The translations under genes were made by a program, and so were the position numbers. From Fidelibacterota bacterium (lineage in GTDB: Bacteria; Fidelibacterota; UBA2242): a DNA stretch of 42,075 bases. The notes beneath the pieces were generated by a model. The model saw only the letters and a program-made list of their open reading frames with translations. It was not told the origin of the DNA and made no database searches. Below, piece by piece: positions 20,960 to 42,075 of this stretch (its first letter is position 1; the number at the start of each line of letters is the position of its first letter). The stretch covers positions 1 to 42,075 of the forward strand of contig JBNGDF010000020.1 of assembly GCA_049975265.1 (NCBI GenBank), in the 5' to 3' direction.

Positions 20960-21125
20960 TTTCCCACTCGGGACGTCGTTCCTCGCCTGCGTGACGCAAT
21001 CGGGCAAGCTACGACGTCATGTCGATTAGTAGTTTTTCCCACTCGTGACGTCGTTCCTACGACGTCACGCAGATCAGCTTACGACGTGGCTTGACCACCT
21101 GAATGACACCCTCGGGCAGGCTGCA
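20960..21125 (+). repeat. Cluster of REP-like hairpins (family CTCGTGACGTCGT-TCCT-ACGACGTCACG)
   Basis: Two tandem copies. The copy at 21044-21069 is a perfect 11-bp stem with a TCCT loop; the first copy has a 27-bp insert in its loop. Confidence 0.8.
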
Positions 21126-31677: not shown

Positions 31678-31730
31678 CACTCGTGACATCGTTCCCATGA
31701 CGTCACGTTTAGGTTAGATTACGGCATAGC
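31678..31730 (+). repeat. REP-like hairpin, same family as 21044-21069
   Basis: CACTCGTGACATCGT-TCCC-ATGACGTCACG...TTACGGCATAGC. Confidence 0.75.
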
Positions 31731-32625: not shown

Positions 32626-32632
32626 TGTTCCT

Positions 32633-32679
32633 CTCGTCATGTTGCTCCTGCGACGTGATGAATGAACTTACGGCGTAGG
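32633..32679 (+). repeat. REP-like hairpin, divergent copy of the same family
   Basis: CTCGTCATGTTGC-TCCT-GCGACGTGATG...TTACGGCGTAGG. Confidence 0.6.
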
Positions 32680-32838
32680 AACGCTGTAACCAGTGGATTA
32701 ACGAAGATTACTCCGTTTGTGAAGTCGCTCCTCCCTGAATGACTCCGATTAATCGAGGTCGGAATTCGGCGGACTGCATCGTCATGTTGTTTTCCGGTTC
32801 TGGGCGTCCCCGTCCGGAACCTATGTACGCTGCGACAT

Positions 32839-35614: not shown

Positions 35615-36307
35615 TTATTGGAAAAGGTTCGTCGGTGCGGTGTTTAGCGGTTCGATACAGCGTGGCGAGTTGTTTTGAACATTATTGACATACGTTGATA
35701 CAGGATAAGCTTCCAATTCACCGGAACAGGGTTTCAGGATTTTCAGAGCCTCATGGAGGCGGTTACCGTCACACTGCAACCAGACATCCAGCTGATCCGG
35801 CTGTAAAACTGCCGGCATTCGCGGATGAATAAATTCCAGTTCTTGGCTTGCCGCACTTGTGATGACAGTATAGGTAAATACCGGATTTCCCTGATTATCA
35901 GATACTTGTGACCAGAGACCAGCCATCGGTAAAATCCGCCGATCCGGCTTTGTGATGTAATACGGCTGCTTCCCTGTAGATATTTTTTGCCATTCATAAT
36001 AACCATCAGTAATGACAACACAGCGGTTATTCGCAAGCAAGTCAGAAAAACTCCGCTTTTCCGTCAGCGTCTCGGAACGGGCATTGATAAAGATGGGCGG
36101 ATTCGGTTTATCCTGTGCCCAGATGGGAACCAATCCCCACCGCATCGGTTTGACAATTCGCTGACCGTCATATATCAAAATCGGCATGGTTGCCGTCGGT
36201 GCTACGTTGTAATTGGGCTGATGATCAAAGGAATCGTCCCATATCTGGATGGACAGCTCCTCGATGATCTCCATCTTACCTTTGGTTAATGTCTTTCGCC
36301 CGCACAC
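35615..36307 (-). CDS. SOS response-associated peptidase (SRAP/YedK/HMCES-like)
   Basis: N-terminal MCGR (GTG start), YNVAPT, WGL, NARSET, GYYEW, HPRMP. Confidence 0.94.
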   Translation of the reverse strand: MCGRKTLTKGKMEIIEELSIQIWDDSFDHQPNYNVAPTATMPILIYDGQRIVKPMRWGLVPIWAQDKPNPPIFINARSETLTEKRSFSDLLANNRCVVITDGYYEWQKISTGKQPYYITKPDRRILPMAGLWSQVSDNQGNPVFTYTVITSAASQELEFIHPRMPAVLQPDQLDVWLQCDGNRLHEALKILKPCSGELEAYPVSTYVNNVQNNSPRCIEPLNTAPTNLFQ

Positions 36308-36319
36308 GGTTCTAATTTA

Positions 36320-36485
36320 CACGGAGTTTCACAGAGAATCCACTGAGATGCACAGAGATTTTATTAATATTTCACTTCAAATGCCTAGATCACAAAGAAT
36401 CAGCAAAGAACAGCACTTATTGCAATTTAATTTCAACATAAACATTTCTCCGTGTTTCCCTGTGTTAACTCTGTGAACCTCTGTG
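36320..36485. repeat. Heptamer-array palindrome E1 (solo)
   Basis: CAC(G/A/T)GAG at 36320, 36330, 36341, 36351; inverted heptamers at 36448, 36458, 36469, 36479; 90-bp AT-rich centre. Confidence 0.85.
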
Positions 36486-36497
36486 TCAAAAAATCTC

Positions 36498-39400
36498 TCA
36501 CCATTCCGTCGCATAGCGGGTTTCCGTCATAACCGGTTTACGAATAATCCCTTCTTTCTTCGGCATCAGTTTCTCCGTAATCCGCCGCAAACTGCCCAGT
36601 TTCTCCACCGTAATTGTATGAACACCAAATGCGACCTCCACCTTTCCCCGAATTACAAACAGGCTTTCCCAGTTCAGCAGATCGCCGAATTCTTTATAAA
36701 TCTCCGGAAACATCACGCATTCAAATATATCGGTTTCATCTTCAAAGGTCACAAACTCCATGGGTTCGCGCTGCCGGGTTGAGGTTACTTTGCGGGTAAT
36801 GTAAACCCCCGCCAGGTTAATCGTCTGCCCCACGAGTTGCGGGATATCCCTCGCTTTACGGACCCGATCGCCTAAAACCGGCAGATAGCGTTCCAGCGGA
36901 TGCTCGGAAATCGGGAATCCGAAAGATTCAATCTCCAGCGTAATGCGTTCCTGATGCGTCAGGGGCTCCCGGGAATAGGGAATCTGCACCGGTTCTCCCA
37001 CCCCGTCCTGCAGGTAATAGCTGGCGACCTGAAATGCGATTTCCTTGTGATTCATTTCCGGCTCCAGCTCCGCAAAACAGCCGGCGTTGGTCAGTGCCAT
37101 GGCATCCGCCAGATCAATATCCACCCGCACCAGGAAATCTTTCAATGACTTGAACTCACCGGCTTTGCGCTCCGCCAGAATCGCAGCTACCGCCTTGCTT
37201 TGCAGGTTTTTGATTGCCATGAATCCTATCCGAATCCGGTCCTTACGCCCGCGGTATTCCCGCCAACTGGTATTGACATAAGGCGGCAGAATTTTGATAC
37301 CAAAGCGCCGGGCTTCACTCAAATAAGCAAACGCCGAATAATAACCGCCCTGATTGGAGATCACCGCCGCCAGGAATTCCGCCGGGTAATGGGCTTTCAG
37401 ATAGGCGCAGGTAAAGGACAGCATGGCGTAAGACGCCGAGTGCGGTTTGCAAAAGGAATAACCGGAAAAGGACTCAATCATGCTCCAGAGCGTCTCCGCC
37501 AATTCCCGGGTATAGCCGCGATGCACGGACCCGTCGATGAACTTCTGTCTCCAGATTGGAACTAAATGCGCCAGCGCCGGACGGGAAATAACCTTGCGCA
37601 CGTAGTCGGATTCCGCATAGCCGAAACCGGCAATGTCCCGCGCCACCATGGAGACCTGCTCCTCGTACACCATAATTCCGTAGCTCTCTGACAGGCATTT
37701 CAAATCGGGATGCAGCAATTTCCAGGGTTTACCATGAATCCGCTCCAGCATAATATTGATAAAACGGTTCGCCGCCGGGCGAATAATCGACGAGTAAATC
37801 ACCACATGCTCAAAATCCACTTTGCCCGCCTTTTGCAGTAGTTGCCGGGTCGCCGGGCTTTCGATATAAAACACGCCCATGGTGCGCCCGGCTTTCATCA
37901 ACGCTTCGGTTTTTGGATCGCCGATGGGCTGGATTTTGTGATAATCCATATATTCGCTGCGATACAGCCCAATCTGCTTCAACGTGTCCCGCACCACCGC
38001 CAGCGAGCGGTTACCGAGGATATCAATCTTCAACAATCCCGAATCTTCGACCTGATCTTTTTCCCACTCCACAATCTGAACACCCTTTGGTGCAACCAGC
38101 ACCGGCACGTACTTGCGGATTTCATCGGGCGCAATAATAATGCCGCCGGGATGTACCGACGACGTGCGAAACGCACCAACGATCTTTTCACTTTGCTGAA
38201 TAATCTGAAGCAATGTATCATCAAGATCAATGTTTTTGAAGCGGGGATCATTGCGAATCCATTCCAGCAATTGAGTTTTGCGGGCAAAATACCCGATCCG
38301 CTTTGTGACCGACTTTATCTCTTCATTTGACAAACCATACACTTTGCTCACTTCTCTGATTGCCGACCGCGGCTGCATAAATACCTGGCTGGACACCATA
38401 GCAGTCCGTTCATTGCCATATTTTTTAAAAATGTAATCCAGAATGTCGTCGCGCTCATCCCAGGGAAAATCCACATCAATATCAGGCATGTCAACCCGTT
38501 CCGGATGAATAAACCGCTCAAAAACCAGGTTGTACTTAATCGGGTCCACCTGAGTAATGAACAGGCAGTAGCTGACCACCGACGCTGCTCCGGAACCGCG
38601 CCCAATCGTAGAGTTTGTCTGCCGAACAATGTCCCAGACTACCAGGAAATAGGGTGCAAAACCCTTCTGCGTGATCAGCTTCAATTCGTACTCGATCCGG
38701 TCTCTGATTTTTTCACTGATCGCACCGTAACGCCGTTTGGCGCCTTCGTACACCAGCTTACGCAACTGCCGGTTGGCTTTATAGGTTTCCTTCAGTGACA
38801 TGTTCGGGAAAATCGTATTCACATAATTCCAGTCGGTCTTGCAGCGTTCCGCCAGATATTGGGAGTTGTTGATCGCCGCCAGGCTGTTGGGAAAGAGCCT
38901 GATCATCTCCTTTTCGGAACGAAAGAAATGGCGTTCACTCTTATAATCGCCGGACTCCAATTGCGATAATGTCTTGTTTCTATCAATGGCTCGCAGGATT
39001 TTATGGGTTTTCTGATCATTGGGATTCAGAAAACAGACATCGCCGGTGGCGACAATCTCCAGATGAAACAGGCGACTCAGCTGCCAGGCATGCCGTTCCG
39101 TAACACCGGGGCGCAATTCCACAAACAGGTGCGTCTCCGGCACGAAACACGCCAGTTTTGCCAGAACCGTCTCCTGGTGACTCAGGACAAACAGCCCGGA
39201 CTTCCGCTTTGCCAGCAAATCTGTAACGGACCGTTCCGGATCATCGTGGACTGCCGAAATAATCCGGCACAGGTTTTCGTAGCCCTGCCGGCTTTCCGCC
39301 AGCAAAATGGTATCCTCACCCGCACTGAGGATATTTGTGCCCGCTATGGGCTTAATAGCCGCCTCCTTCGCCAATTGGACAAATCGGATAAACCCCCAGA

Positions 39401-39527
39401 GTCCGTTGACTTCGGTCAATGCCAGATATTGCTGACCATGGGCTTGCGCCCGGGCAAGCAGCTCCTGAGGCGAAGCGGTGCCGCGCATTTTGGAAAATGT
39501 CGAGTGTGTATTCAGATGGACAAACAT
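36498..39527 (-). CDS. dnaE2: C-family DNA polymerase III alpha subunit, error-prone DnaE2-type by context
   Basis: Degenerate PHP domain (HLNTHS, LTEV), GRGSGAAS, PDIDVDF, LKIDILG, YSFCKPHS, OB fold; lies in an operon with lexA and imuB. Confidence 0.85.
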   Translation of the reverse strand: MFVHLNTHSTFSKMRGTASPQELLARAQAHGQQYLALTEVNGLWGFIRFVQLAKEAAIKPIAGTNILSAGEDTILLAESRQGYENLCRIISAVHDDPERSVTDLLAKRKSGLFVLSHQETVLAKLACFVPETHLFVELRPGVTERHAWQLSRLFHLEIVATGDVCFLNPNDQKTHKILRAIDRNKTLSQLESGDYKSERHFFRSEKEMIRLFPNSLAAINNSQYLAERCKTDWNYVNTIFPNMSLKETYKANRQLRKLVYEGAKRRYGAISEKIRDRIEYELKLITQKGFAPYFLVVWDIVRQTNSTIGRGSGAASVVSYCLFITQVDPIKYNLVFERFIHPERVDMPDIDVDFPWDERDDILDYIFKKYGNERTAMVSSQVFMQPRSAIREVSKVYGLSNEEIKSVTKRIGYFARKTQLLEWIRNDPRFKNIDLDDTLLQIIQQSEKIVGAFRTSSVHPGGIIIAPDEIRKYVPVLVAPKGVQIVEWEKDQVEDSGLLKIDILGNRSLAVVRDTLKQIGLYRSEYMDYHKIQPIGDPKTEALMKAGRTMGVFYIESPATRQLLQKAGKVDFEHVVIYSSIIRPAANRFINIMLERIHGKPWKLLHPDLKCLSESYGIMVYEEQVSMVARDIAGFGYAESDYVRKVISRPALAHLVPIWRQKFIDGSVHRGYTRELAETLWSMIESFSGYSFCKPHSASYAMLSFTCAYLKAHYPAEFLAAVISNQGGYYSAFAYLSEARRFGIKILPPYVNTSWREYRGRKDRIRIGFMAIKNLQSKAVAAILAERKAGEFKSLKDFLVRVDIDLADAMALTNAGCFAELEPEMNHKEIAFQVASYYLQDGVGEPVQIPYSREPLTHQERITLEIESFGFPISEHPLERYLPVLGDRVRKARDIPQLVGQTINLAGVYITRKVTSTRQREPMEFVTFEDETDIFECVMFPEIYKEFGDLLNWESLFVIRGKVEVAFGVHTITVEKLGSLRRITEKLMPKKEGIIRKPVMTETRYATEW

Positions 39528-39649: not shown

Positions 39650-40021
39650 TCACATTACAAAACGTTTAAGACCGTTTTTTAACTGTTTGACATTGAAATT
39701 GATTAATAACCCAACTTCTTTTTTCGCCAGTTTCAGATAAGTCAGTATCTGGGCTTCATGAACCGGTGAGATTTCATCGATCGATTTCAACTCAACGATC
39801 ACTTTATTATCGACCAGAATATCAATCCGGTATCCACATTCCAACTGAATTTCTTTGTAAACCAGCGGTATCGGTTTCTGGCGCTCGGTATACAATCCCA
39901 TCTTCTGTAATTCATAAACCAGACACTCTTCATAAGTCGATTCGAGCAAACCAGGACCCAACTGGCTATGGACTTCCAGCGCAACTTTGATAATTTTCTC
40001 CGTCAGATCAGCGAATTTCAC
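39650..40021 (-). CDS. GxxExxY protein (PD-(D/E)XK-like nuclease fold)
   Basis: LGPGLLESTYE, RIDILVDNKVIVELKS, QILTYLK, GLLINF; GTG start after AAGGAG. Confidence 0.93.
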   Translation of the reverse strand: MKFADLTEKIIKVALEVHSQLGPGLLESTYEECLVYELQKMGLYTERQKPIPLVYKEIQLECGYRIDILVDNKVIVELKSIDEISPVHEAQILTYLKLAKKEVGLLINFNVKQLKNGLKRFVM

Positions 40022-40037
40022 AAAAGCTCCTTTATAG

Positions 40038-41309
40038 TTACACAGAGGTGCACAGAGAAGACACGGAGTTACACTGAGCACTATTTAAAAAAGAAAAAAT
40101 CTCCGTGGCTTTCCGTGAATCCTTCGTGTTGCTCCGTGTCATAATCTCTTTCTTCTTCGGTATCAGCAGGCTTGCCGCCGAACAGATGCTCCCGAATCCG
40201 TATTTATCCCGAATTTTATCCAGCGTCACCGAAAGCCTATCGGGTCGGTTATCTCTGAACAATTCCATCTGCTCATTGACAGCCTTGAAATTTGTAGCAT
40301 CCAGCAAGAGTGACCGGATGCGATTGCGCCGGTAATTGGCCCGGATAAACAGCGCAATCGCTTCGCTAATCACGGTTTCGTCATCATTGTAGCGCACCGC
40401 ACCGCTGCAAGATTTCTTGAATCCATCGGTGTAATGGACTTCCAACCGCAGTGATCGGGCAACCTGACAACGACGGCGCAGCCGATAGGCAAGCTGCTCA
40501 GCTAAATTCCGAACCGTGGCAATTAAAATATCTTCATCGTTGGTATCCTCCTCCAAAACAGTCTGCCTGATAATATGATCCCGCAGCTGCGGCGGCTTAA
40601 CTGCGGAATTATCGCGACCGTGGGCTTCCATAGCCAACCTGCGGTAATGCTGACCAAACAGCGTCTTCCCGGATTCCGATTGATTGATAATCGTCTGGAT
40701 ATTTTTCACCTGGTAAAGAAACAGAAATTTGATCATCCGGCTGACGGCTTTTTCATTGGTGGCAGGCAAAACCTGCGATGGCAGCGGTGCCAGGAAACGG
40801 GGTTCGTTGCCCCATTCCACACGGTATATTTTATCGGGAACGACTGCCGTGGAAATGCTGCTCACCAGTTTATTGGCGCTGATACCGATCTGGCTGCTCA
40901 TGCTCATACGATTGCGTATGTCTGTTATAATCAGTCCGCCGGTTCTCAGATCATCCTTGTAAATATTGCGCATCCCGTTCATATCGAGATAATATTGCCC
41001 GAATGCTGCGGGTTCGGCGACGGGCGAATAGCTCGCCACCATCTGGTAAAGATGATGATGCAGCCTGGCATACAGGGTTGCATTGTAAGGCAGAAGTCGT
41101 ACACTGTGCGACATTTTCCGGGCTACCGAAACCTTCAAGCCCTGACAGAGCCCCTCCTCTTTGGCTTCCGGTGACAATGCCACAATACTGCCATTCTGAT
41201 GATGAGAGGAAATGACGGCAATCGGTCGCGTCCGCAGACTGCTGTCCAGAATGCGCTCCGCCTGGAGTTCAAAATCTTCTAACCTGATATGATAAATCCC
41301 GTCGTACAT
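40038..41309 (-). CDS. Inactive Y-family polymerase homologue (ImuB/DinB-like)
   Basis: IMS-like layout (RPIAVI, LSPEAKEEGL, YYLDM, GISANKLVS, LDKIRDKYG) with the catalytic acidic residues degenerate. Confidence 0.8.
   Translation of the reverse strand: MYDGIYHIRLEDFELQAERILDSSLRTRPIAVISSHHQNGSIVALSPEAKEEGLCQGLKVSVARKMSHSVRLLPYNATLYARLHHHLYQMVASYSPVAEPAAFGQYYLDMNGMRNIYKDDLRTGGLIITDIRNRMSMSSQIGISANKLVSSISTAVVPDKIYRVEWGNEPRFLAPLPSQVLPATNEKAVSRMIKFLFLYQVKNIQTIINQSESGKTLFGQHYRRLAMEAHGRDNSAVKPPQLRDHIIRQTVLEEDTNDEDILIATVRNLAEQLAYRLRRRCQVARSLRLEVHYTDGFKKSCSGAVRYNDDETVISEAIALFIRANYRRNRIRSLLLDATNFKAVNEQMELFRDNRPDRLSVTLDKIRDKYGFGSICSAASLLIPKKKEIMTRSNTKDSRKATEIFSFLNSAQCNSVSSLCTSV
40041..40146. repeat. 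Heptamer-array palindrome E3
   Basis: Direct repeat of E2 exactly 500 bp away; overlapped by the imuB C-terminus. Confidence 0.95.
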
Positions 41310-41320
41310 GGTTTTTTTAG

Positions 41321-41439
41321 TTACACGGAGGTTCACTGAGATGACACAGAGCTACACTGGGCACCATTATTAAATACATAAAATATCTCCGTGGCTCTCC
41401 GTGTCCATCTCCGCGCAACTCCGTGTCACAATCTCTCAC
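41321..41439. repeat. Heptamer-array palindrome E4
   Basis: 41328-41439 is identical to 41503-41614 (112 bp, offset 175). Confidence 0.95.
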
Positions 41440-41495
41440 ATTGCAAACAGTTTCCCGAATACTCACATTAAATTTCATTAGCAAACCAGCTCCTT
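41436..41495 (-). pseudogene. Probable internally deleted GxxExxY gene remnant
   Basis: AAGGAGCT RBS plus ATG AAA TTT start (intact gene: AAGGAGCT..GTG AAA TTC). End AAACTGTTTGCAATGTGAGAG matches the intact gene end AAACGTTTTGTAATGTGAGAG at 18/21. Confidence 0.6.
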
Positions 41496-41614
41496 TTACA
41501 CAGAGGTTCACTGAGATGACACAGAGCTACACTGGGCACCATTATTAAATACATAAAATATCTCCGTGGCTCTCCGTGTCCATCTCCGCGCAACTCCGTG
41601 TCACAATCTCTCAC
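41496..41614. repeat. Heptamer-array palindrome E5
   Basis: Direct repeat of E4; includes the lexA stop codon. Confidence 0.95.
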
Positions 41615-42075
41615 TCATACTGCCGCAGGATTGCCAGAACCACTCCACCAATGCGAAATTCGTCTTCCGGAGATACCCGAATCACTTCATAATCCGGGTT
41701 GCGGGGATGTAACTCGACGCCACCGGATTTCGGATAATAGCGTTTCAGTGTGGCTTCACCATTGACAAAAGCCACCACGGTTTGTCCCGGCGACGCCTCG
41801 GGTTTCCGGCGGACAATCACATAATCACCATCCTCAATATGGTCATCAATCATGGAATCGCCCTTGACCCTCAAAACGTAGTTGTCAGGATGAATGTACG
41901 AAAGTGGTACCTCGATGGTTTCGCGATTCTCCACCGCTTCCAGCGGATAGCCTGCCGCAATCAGACCAAGCAGTGGCAATTCATTATACCCCGGCTGGTC
42001 CGACACCGTCAGCGCCCGCTTGGCATTGTATTTCCCGCGCTCCAGAACACCGAGTTTTTCCAGCTCCCGCACATA
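41611..42075 (-). CDS. lexA: LexA repressor (5' end outside the window)
   Basis: End of the winged HTH (LEKLGVLER), IAAG cleavage site, VKGDSM serine and ATLKR lysine. Confidence 0.92.
   Translation of the reverse strand, partial: YVRELEKLGVLERGKYNAKRALTVSDQPGYNELPLLGLIAAGYPLEAVENRETIEVPLSYIHPDNYVLRVKGDSMIDDHIEDGDYVIVRRKPEASPGQTVVAFVNGEATLKRYYPKSGGVELHPRNPDYEVIRVSPEDEFRIGGVVLAILRQYE

What the first reader, a model, noticed from the sequence alone, without database searches (positions are those of the whole stretch)
41436..41495. The spacer between E4 and E5 looks like a GxxExxY gene with its middle deleted
Seen: on the minus strand it reads AAGGAGCT-N9-ATG AAA TTT (MKF, as in the intact gene) and ends ...AAA CTG TTT GCA ATG TGA GAG (KLFAM*). 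The intact gene ends ...AAA CGT TTT GTA ATG TGA GAG (KRFVM*). Start and end are in different frames, with only about 43 bp from start codon to stop. Inference: a non-autonomous, MITE-like derivative that kept both ends.
Basis: partly seen in the sequence, partly recalled or inferred. Interest (0 to 1): 0.75.

Follow-up and report, generated by a model that had tools for sequence, protein, structure and literature searches.

The report
Tail remnant of hairpin-flanked nuclease gene
The 56 bases between two hairpin repeats in this DNA-repair operon match only the tail of a small predicted nuclease gene that relatives still carry intact at the same spot, so they are most likely a deletion scar rather than a mobile mini-element, although they may now act as a short reading frame that would carry ribosomes across the hairpin.

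Summary
But it did not keep both ends. Spacer bases 1-31, including the supposed RBS and 'ATG AAA TTT', match codons 101-111 (KEVGLLINFNV) at 21-24/31 in 7 of 7 homologues, against 12-14/31 in the start register. It is the last ~23 codons. A 14/17-base match between the RBS and codons 98-103 marks a likely deletion junction. It is single-copy, has no inverted ends of its own, and sits between the same repeats in runs from three studies, so it is not a MITE. Similar scars occur in other cassettes. The new ATG opens a 53-codon frame through the second hairpin to just before imuB, which has no Shine-Dalgarno; a ribosome-relay role is possible but weakly supported. This scan has noted hairpin-flanked GxxExxY cassettes and relay frames before on other DNA; I found no paper on the cassettes.

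The parts
41440..41495 (-). 56-bp unique spacer: remnant of the last ~23 codons of a GxxExxY gene
41465..41495 (-). block matching gene nt 302-332 (codons 101-111, K-E-V-G-L-L-I-N-F-N-V); holds the apparent RBS and the apparent ATG AAA TTT
   Evidence: 21-24/31 ungapped in 7 of 7 homologues; a profile of 139 other genes aligns here, positions 287-334, 3.2 bits, E 0.0019 in a 320-nt search
41436..41453 (-). block matching the gene's last codons and stop (K-R-F-V-M-stop); the last four bases belong to the repeat
   Evidence: 8-11/14 anchored
41317..41478 (-). 53-codon open frame from the new ATG through E5, ending 7 nt before the imuB ATG; possible ribosome relay; no Pfam match
41496..41614 (-). 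E4, 119-bp word-hairpin repeat overlapping the lexA stop; 118/119 identical to E5; predicted -42 kcal/mol
41321..41439 (-). E5, second copy of the hairpin repeat, directly before imuB
41611..42075 (-). lexA, 3' part (cut by the contig end)
   Evidence: TIGR00498 above cut-off
40038..41309 (-). Y-family polymerase-like gene, called imuB here from its place between lexA and dnaE2; no Shine-Dalgarno motif; reads through E3
   Evidence: DNA polymerase IV models, all below cut-off
40031..40146 (-). E3 hairpin repeat (76-79% to E4/E5, 93% to E2)
39650..40021 (-). intact GxxExxY gene, 123 aa, at the next junction
   Evidence: TIGR04256, PF13366
39531..39646 (-). E2 hairpin repeat with its own 34-codon ATG frame ending before dnaE2
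36498..39527 (-). DnaE-type polymerase (dnaE2 by context)
   Evidence: TIGR00594 above cut-off, error-prone polymerase model below cut-off

Best explanation
The spacer matches the last ~23 codons of a GxxExxY nuclease gene that relatives carry intact between the same two hairpin repeats, and it is most likely an immobile scar left when a deletion between the gene's ribosome-binding site and a look-alike sequence at codons 98-103 removed the start and the predicted catalytic core. Shown: the homology and its register; the intact gene at this junction in relatives; the 14/17-base microhomology in two of them; single copy; presence in strains from three studies. Inferred: (1) the ancestor read lexA-hairpin-RBS-gene-hairpin-imuB; (2) replication slippage or recombination across the microhomology, perhaps helped by the hairpin just upstream, deleted about 310 bp; (3) about 12 more bases were lost and point changes turned I-N-F codons into ATG AAA TTT; (4) the loss was tolerated because a second copy sits one junction downstream; (5) the two flanking hairpins have since been homogenised by gene conversion.
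For: Best local alignment of the spacer to RBS+CDS falls at nt 301/302-332 in 6 of 7 homologues and 309-332 in the seventh. Profile model with the 3' end only scores 19.8 bits against 11.3 for a both-ends model, and an unconstrained model picks the 3'-only path. The 30 nt before the start match their own CDS best at nt 293-309 (14/17) in G014 and G010, both resident at this junction. GGAG-to-ATG spacing is 11 nt in the spacer, 5-7 nt in the six homologues that have GGAG, and 11 nt in 7 of 246 genome genes. The scar fits the gene resident at this junction in G014 better than the window's own downstream copy (score 37 vs 30; the same GTGAGAGATT exit). G014 shows the mirror state: full gene at lexA-imuB, 3' scar (nt 312-368, 6/1000 shuffles) at imuB-dnaE2. 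Other 3' scars: G000 contig C42 (nt 310-369, 60/60), G011 (340-375), L214 (300-393).
Against: The microhomology is the best self-match in only 2 of 7 homologues. The nine bases ATGAAATTT alone score better as the gene start (11.0 bits) than as codons 107-109 (2.0 bits), so a small conversion from the start cannot be excluded. The middle 11 bases align to nothing clearly. A broad profile gives only 3.2 bits and misses the spacer in a whole-genome scan, so the call depends on knowing where to look. The spacer differs from strain contigs at 7 of 168 positions where the neighbouring genes differ by about 8-9% (binomial p 0.02, strains not independent), which is less change than a pure scar should show. 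No intermediate with the clean deletion was found. The tree of the genes is unresolved among G000, G014, G001 and G010.
Confidence: 0.75

Rival explanations
1. Domesticated scar (compatible with the best explanation, adds a function): the K-E codons now serve as a Shine-Dalgarno and the new ATG starts a throw-away 53-codon frame that melts hairpin E5 and hands ribosomes to imuB, as proposed for mycobacterial MIRU repeats.
For: Frame open from 41478 to a stop 10 nt before the imuB ATG in G000, X1 and X7, and 26 nt before in X3 (from the differences listed). 7 of 8 substitutions change the residue, so frame, not peptide, would matter. imuB has no SD in a genome where 481 of 1083 genes have one (control 78). 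In G029 an independent 5' scar also reads through the last hairpin to a stop 12 nt before imuB. Hairpins (fold below -25 kcal/mol) before dnaE2, imuB and GxxExxY carry an 80-nt open frame ending near the start in 10/11, 5/8 and 5/6 cases against 2.3, 1.7 and 2.0 from shuffles. Coupling by short upstream ORFs and MIRUs is described in PMC12548453 (passages read).
Against: The antisense control is much closer: open frame in 26 of 30 junctions on the sense strand and 19 of 30 on the antisense (8 vs 1 discordant; kin not independent). SD-ATG spacing of 11 nt is rare (7 of 246) and X7 has a weaker SD. E5 holds its own in-frame ATG 7 nt after a GGAG, so the spacer start is not needed. G002 has a solo hairpin before imuB with no open frame. 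The +7 nt spacing is outside the -4 to +3 range that the review gives as most efficient. X3's E5 middle was inferred from a collapsed repeat contig.
Confidence: 0.25
2. Abortive local copying: the scar never was a whole gene at this site but a partial duplicate (gene tail plus hairpin) copied into a solo hairpin during repair of a nick made by the GxxExxY protein, which would also explain why E4 and E5 are nearly identical.
For: Partial copies of 30-90 nt of either gene end lie next to intact genes in 7 of 140 distinct loci, five lineages. The gene's position swaps between the two junctions in two pairs (G000/G014, G011/G029) and G005 has near-identical copies at both. E4 and E5 share strain-specific changes.
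Against: The scar resembles the lexA-imuB resident of G014 more than the neighbouring copy; E4/E5 are only 76-79% like E2/E3; the junction falls on a microhomology expected of a deletion. No nuclease activity has been shown.
Confidence: 0.15
3. One reading: a non-autonomous MITE-like derivative that kept RBS, start and end and can be moved by the intact GxxExxY protein.
For: AAGGAGCT is 8/8 with the window gene's upstream region and ATGAAATTT is 7/9 with its start; the both-ends profile model beats shuffles (1 of 300 reach it), though it shares the 3' block. L092 holds a true both-ends derivative (nt 1-63 plus 376-412).
Against: Worse register fit; needs a 6-nt insertion between RBS and start; single copy in every search; same neighbours in three studies.
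Confidence: 0.05
4. Chance resemblance of an AT-rich spacer, or constant parts of the hairpin element.
For: 'G TGA GAG' is element sequence; the broad-profile score is low.
Against: Two separate blocks, in the right order and place, each far beyond shuffles, at a junction where relatives hold the gene.
Confidence: 0.02

Closest known systems
GxxExxY / PDDEXK_3 family (TIGR04256, PF13366)
   Same: The neighbouring gene is a member above both cut-offs; the spacer is homologous to its C-terminal motif. PMC3424549 (one table passage read) lists the family as function unknown, with multiple transfers.
   Different: The spacer encodes no domain; it lacks the GxxExxY motif and the predicted D...ExK core. 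No solved structure matched the intact protein.
Type I MITEs (internal-deletion derivatives of insertion sequences; PMC6382973, passages read)
   Same: Arises by internal deletion of a parent gene; small and AT-rich. The E hairpins themselves (about 115 bp with inverted arms) look more MITE-like than the spacer.
   Different: No terminal inverted repeats of its own (it is flanked by direct repeats of a hairpin), no target duplication, one copy, and the parent is not a known transposase.
REPIN/RAYT systems (PMC3116915, PMC3337134; search listing and abstract starts only) and Ssn/SRM systems (PMC11893778; abstract and section 7 read)
   Same: A small nuclease-fold gene flanked on both sides by hairpin repeats that also occur without the gene.
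   Different: Different fold (PD-(D/E)XK, not HUH or GIY-YIG); only about 10 hairpins of this word type in the genome, not hundreds; several word types go with different gene subfamilies; no activity shown.
MIRU repeats of mycobacteria (as described in the review PMC12548453, passage read; the original paper not seen)
   Same: A repeat between operon genes that carries a short frame ending next to the downstream start.
   Different: MIRU frames couple at -4 nt; here the spacing is +7 nt, the frame starts in a gene scar outside the repeat, and coupling is untested.

Membership tests
GxxExxY gene remnant (pseudogene) | Significant homology to the family, in order and at a syntenic site | tested here: met
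   synteny
GxxExxY gene remnant (pseudogene) | Loss of start, motif and catalytic core | tested here: met
   only nt ~300-368 of 369 align; no Pfam hit on the 53-codon frame
MITE (type I) | Both ends of the parent retained | tested here: not met
   5' block belongs to codons 101-111; at most the RBS survives at the junction
MITE (type I) | Terminal inverted repeats | tested here: not met
   no inverted repeat with arms in the spacer among the 25 longest listed; flanks are direct repeats, each a hairpin
MITE (type I) | Target-site duplication | tested here: inconclusive
   none evident on comparing with the solo (G002) and empty (G008) junctions by eye; no close empty allele available
MITE (type I) | Several copies or new insertion sites | tested here: not met
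   the genomes are incomplete and exact patterns miss diverged copies
MITE (type I) | Mobilisation in trans by a parent transposase | not testable with these tools
   GxxExxY has no shown activity
REPIN/RAYT or Ssn/SRM system | Cognate enzyme is a HUH tyrosine transposase or a GIY-YIG nuclease | tested here: not met
   PF13366 PD-(D/E)XK
REPIN/RAYT or Ssn/SRM system | Enzyme gene flanked by the hairpin repeat | tested here: met
MIRU-like translational relay | Open frame across the repeat ending near the downstream start | tested here: met
MIRU-like translational relay | Frame kept more often than composition explains | tested here: inconclusive
   above shuffles but 26 vs 19 of 30 against the antisense control
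MIRU-like translational relay | Translation of the frame raises downstream expression | not testable with these tools
   needs a reporter or ribosome profiling

The most novel reading that the evidence does not exclude
GxxExxY genes and their word-hairpins form an undescribed nuclease-and-repeat system that moves the gene between neighbouring hairpins of an operon and leaves end fragments behind; here the dead gene's tail was turned into a new SD plus start codon whose frame carries ribosomes through the hairpin to the SD-less SOS polymerase gene imuB, a solution reached independently from a 5' fragment in G029.
Probability: 0.25. Interest if true: 0.65.

Novelty: new variant of a known kind. 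Interest (0 to 1): 0.36.

Why it matters
The spacer itself is a small pseudogene scar, an ordinary kind of object. Its value is as a record of how GxxExxY cassettes turn over: the same two junctions of one SOS-mutagenesis operon are found empty, with a solo hairpin, with a full gene, with a scar, with a distant GxxExxY subfamily, or with a four-helix-bundle gene. That gives a natural series for working out what this widespread, uncharacterised nuclease family does and names a candidate substrate (its own hairpin). If the relay reading holds, it would be a case of a gene's tail being recoded into a translation start that keeps a DNA-damage polymerase expressed.

Tried and rejected
Both-ends model: tested three ways and rejected. 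Mis-assembly of near-identical repeats: rejected, since single contigs in X1, X3 and X7 cross the spacer; X2 covers only part and X13 stops at E4, which says nothing. No RNA holder was listed, so expression is untested. Copy searches: BLAST of the genome gave only chance-level hits outside the locus; in 29 family genomes the best non-self hit was the 3' end of G014's intact gene; exact patterns found 0 stretches in JGI metagenomes and viral contigs, which may leave out the window's own kin, and 3 of 235 loci, all the window itself. Rfam: two matches far below gathering score. PDB by sequence: none. Remnant survey: of 190 loci, 170 had a full gene with flanks and 140 were distinct; 14 sense against 5 antisense flanks of 280 passed the threshold; I dropped L108 and L121 (contig edge) and L193 (gene tail is part of a long tandem repeat) before counting 7 loci. 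A family-wide profile search for diverged scars was not run, so their frequency is a lower bound. Literature: 'GxxExxY' listed 2 papers, on reverse transcriptases and an algal virus (listing only); PF13366 listed 2; searches gave nothing on these cassettes. The library lacks most subscription journals, and supplements were not searched. Trees: the imuB tree groups G000 with G014, G002, G003, G005 and L072 without resolving them, so the order of gains and losses is not fixed.

Full report
Setting. The window is a whole contig of an uncultured bacterium (G000). A named record with a close relative of the gene in the same operon is titled Candidatus Neomarinimicrobiota (L156). On the minus strand the end of the window reads lexA, E4, spacer, E5, a Y-family polymerase-like gene (imuB by position), E3, GxxExxY, E2, dnaE2. 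E4 and E5 are 119-bp direct repeats, 118/119 identical; E2 and E3 are 93% alike and 76-79% like E4/E5. Each folds as a long hairpin built from CACGGAG-type words. The unique spacer is 41440-41495, 56 bp.

The observation. The quoted letters are correct. The repeat begins at the G before TGA, so 'G TGA GAG' also follows lexA and is not evidence. The 14 bases before it are: 11/14 against three homologues (p=0.0001), 8-10/14 against four more. The spacer is real: single contigs of three runs from three studies cross it with 1-4 differences.

Relatives. Of 29 family genomes, 17 hold a close imuB and 14 let the lexA-imuB junction be read. Six carry a full GxxExxY gene there: G014, G001, G010 and G029 (89-75% identical to the window's protein) and G005 and G020 (44-46%, with another repeat word). 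Five have hairpin-type sequence without the gene (G002, G026, G016, G009, G012, judged by eye) and three have none (G008, G018, G023). G027 and G028 have lexA-hairpin-gene with the imuB side missing; G003, G011 and G019 are split at the junction. So the spacer lies where the gene lies in relatives.

What was kept. Aligning the spacer to RBS plus coding sequence of seven close homologues puts its first 31 bases on gene nt 301-332 every time (309-332 in the most distant), never on the start. Ungapped, they match 21-24/31 in that register and 12-14/31 with the ATG on the gene start. Read in that frame the spacer gives L-L-M-K-F-N-V, the family's G-L-L-I-N-F-N-V motif with two third-position changes. 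A position-specific model scores 19.8 bits using only the last 75 nt and 11.3 bits when forced to use both ends; a free model chooses the 3' path. A profile of 139 other GxxExxY genes independently aligns the block to positions 287-334, though weakly (3.2 bits; E 0.0019 in 320 nt; missed genome-wide). The SD-to-ATG spacing, 11 nt, is unlike the 5-7 nt of real copies and rare in the genome (7 of 246). Against this, the nine bases ATGAAATTT alone fit the start better (11.0 vs 2.0 bits), and about 11 middle bases are unexplained.

How it arose (inferred). In G014 and G010 the 30 nt before the start match the gene's own nt 293-309 at 14/17, the A-K-K-E-V codons, which is where the scar begins (not the best self-match in the other five). 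A deletion across this repeat removes about 310 bp, joins RBS to K-E and explains why the scar seems to begin with an RBS. The junction is 305 nt here and 615 nt in G014. The scar fits G014's resident gene better than the window's downstream copy, so it descends from a gene at this site. G014 is the mirror image, with a 3' scar at imuB-dnaE2. The genome has a second, perfect 60-nt 3' fragment at the end of contig C42. In 140 distinct loci from many phyla, 7 loci (five lineages) have partial self-copies within 700 nt after three were dropped: 5' pieces (L036, L140, L142, L213, L214), 3' pieces (L035, L213, L214) and a both-ends derivative (L092). Scars are thus a recurring product of these cassettes.

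Not a MITE. One copy in the genome; none in 29 relatives, JGI metagenomes or viral contigs; no inverted ends; same flanks in all strains seen. By the features given in PMC6382973 (passages read) it fails on ends, inverted repeats and spread. The solo hairpins are the better candidates for a non-autonomous form.

A possible second life. The new ATG opens 53 codons through E5 to a stop 10 nt before the imuB ATG. imuB has no SD although the genome uses SD motifs (481 of 1083 genes, control 78). With the strain differences the frame stays open (stop at -10 in X1 and X7, -26 in X3), and 7 of 8 substitutions change the residue. G029's independent 5' scar also reads through the last hairpin to -12, and imuB itself reads through its downstream hairpin in G000, G002, G010, G011, G026 and G029. 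Open frames exceed shuffles, but the antisense control is close (26 vs 19 of 30), the SD spacing is poor, E5 has its own in-frame ATG, and G002 manages without such a frame. I give the relay about 25%. The idea is known from MIRU repeats (PMC12548453, passage read).

Comparison and novelty. The cassette works like REPIN/RAYT or Ssn/SRM in layout (a small nuclease-fold gene between hairpin repeats; PMC11893778 section 7 read) but is a member of neither, as the enzyme is PD-(D/E)XK and its function is listed as unknown (PMC3424549, table passage). My nine paper searches, of which bear on this, listed nothing on GxxExxY cassettes. Earlier notes of this scan describe such cassettes, gutted copies and relay frames in other genomes; they are unchecked notes and I used them for comparison only. 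What this locus adds is the corrected anatomy, a likely deletion junction and a syntenic series of states.

Verdict. Real, gene-derived, misread in detail, not mobile. Interest 0.36.

Noticed in passing
window 41321-41439 and 41496-41614: E4 and E5 share strain-specific changes at matching positions (41333/41508, 41360/41535 and the 3-nt loss in X1; 41352/41527 and 41360/41535 in X7), which points to gene conversion between the two repeats.
   Followed up: partly
window 40038-40146: imuB has no stop before hairpin E3 and gains about 35 repeat-encoded residues; the same read-through occurs in G002, G010, G011, G026 and G029.
   Followed up: partly
G000 contigs C42 16716-16872 and C33 1-500: A left arm joined to a perfect copy of the last 60 nt of the C33 GxxExxY gene, then its tail and right arm, at a contig end.
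   Followed up: partly
L023 2900-3280 (G040, same order): The lexA-imuB junction holds a four-helix-bundle gene (TIGR02436) between repeats of another word type, so a second cassette family uses the same site.
   Followed up: partly
L005 (G005): Near-identical copies of a distant GxxExxY subfamily at both junctions of the operon, with a CACAAAG-type repeat.
   Followed up: no
L213, L214, L140: An intact cassette nested between a 5' fragment and a 3' fragment of the same gene, as if inserted into an older copy of itself.
   Followed up: partly
window 36310-36495 and 35615-36307: A larger related hairpin follows dnaE2, before a 230-aa gene matching PRK09951 below cut-off; I recall this family as SOS-associated SRAP proteins (not tested).
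   Followed up: no
window 40117-42075 in run X1: imuB differs from the window at 8 of 845 bases but lexA at 39 of 491, suggesting recombination near the hairpins.
   Followed up: no
G000 contigs C49 480-1160 and C28 13990-14650: Two more GxxExxY genes with their own word repeats (CACAGAG and CATCCTGT types); the C49 copy lies between genes that look, from recall, like cas4 and a CRISPR RAMP gene (not tested).
   Followed up: no
window 21040-21069, 31678-31707, 32631-32696: Another short repeat family (D7, I8), unrelated to the E hairpins.
   Followed up: no
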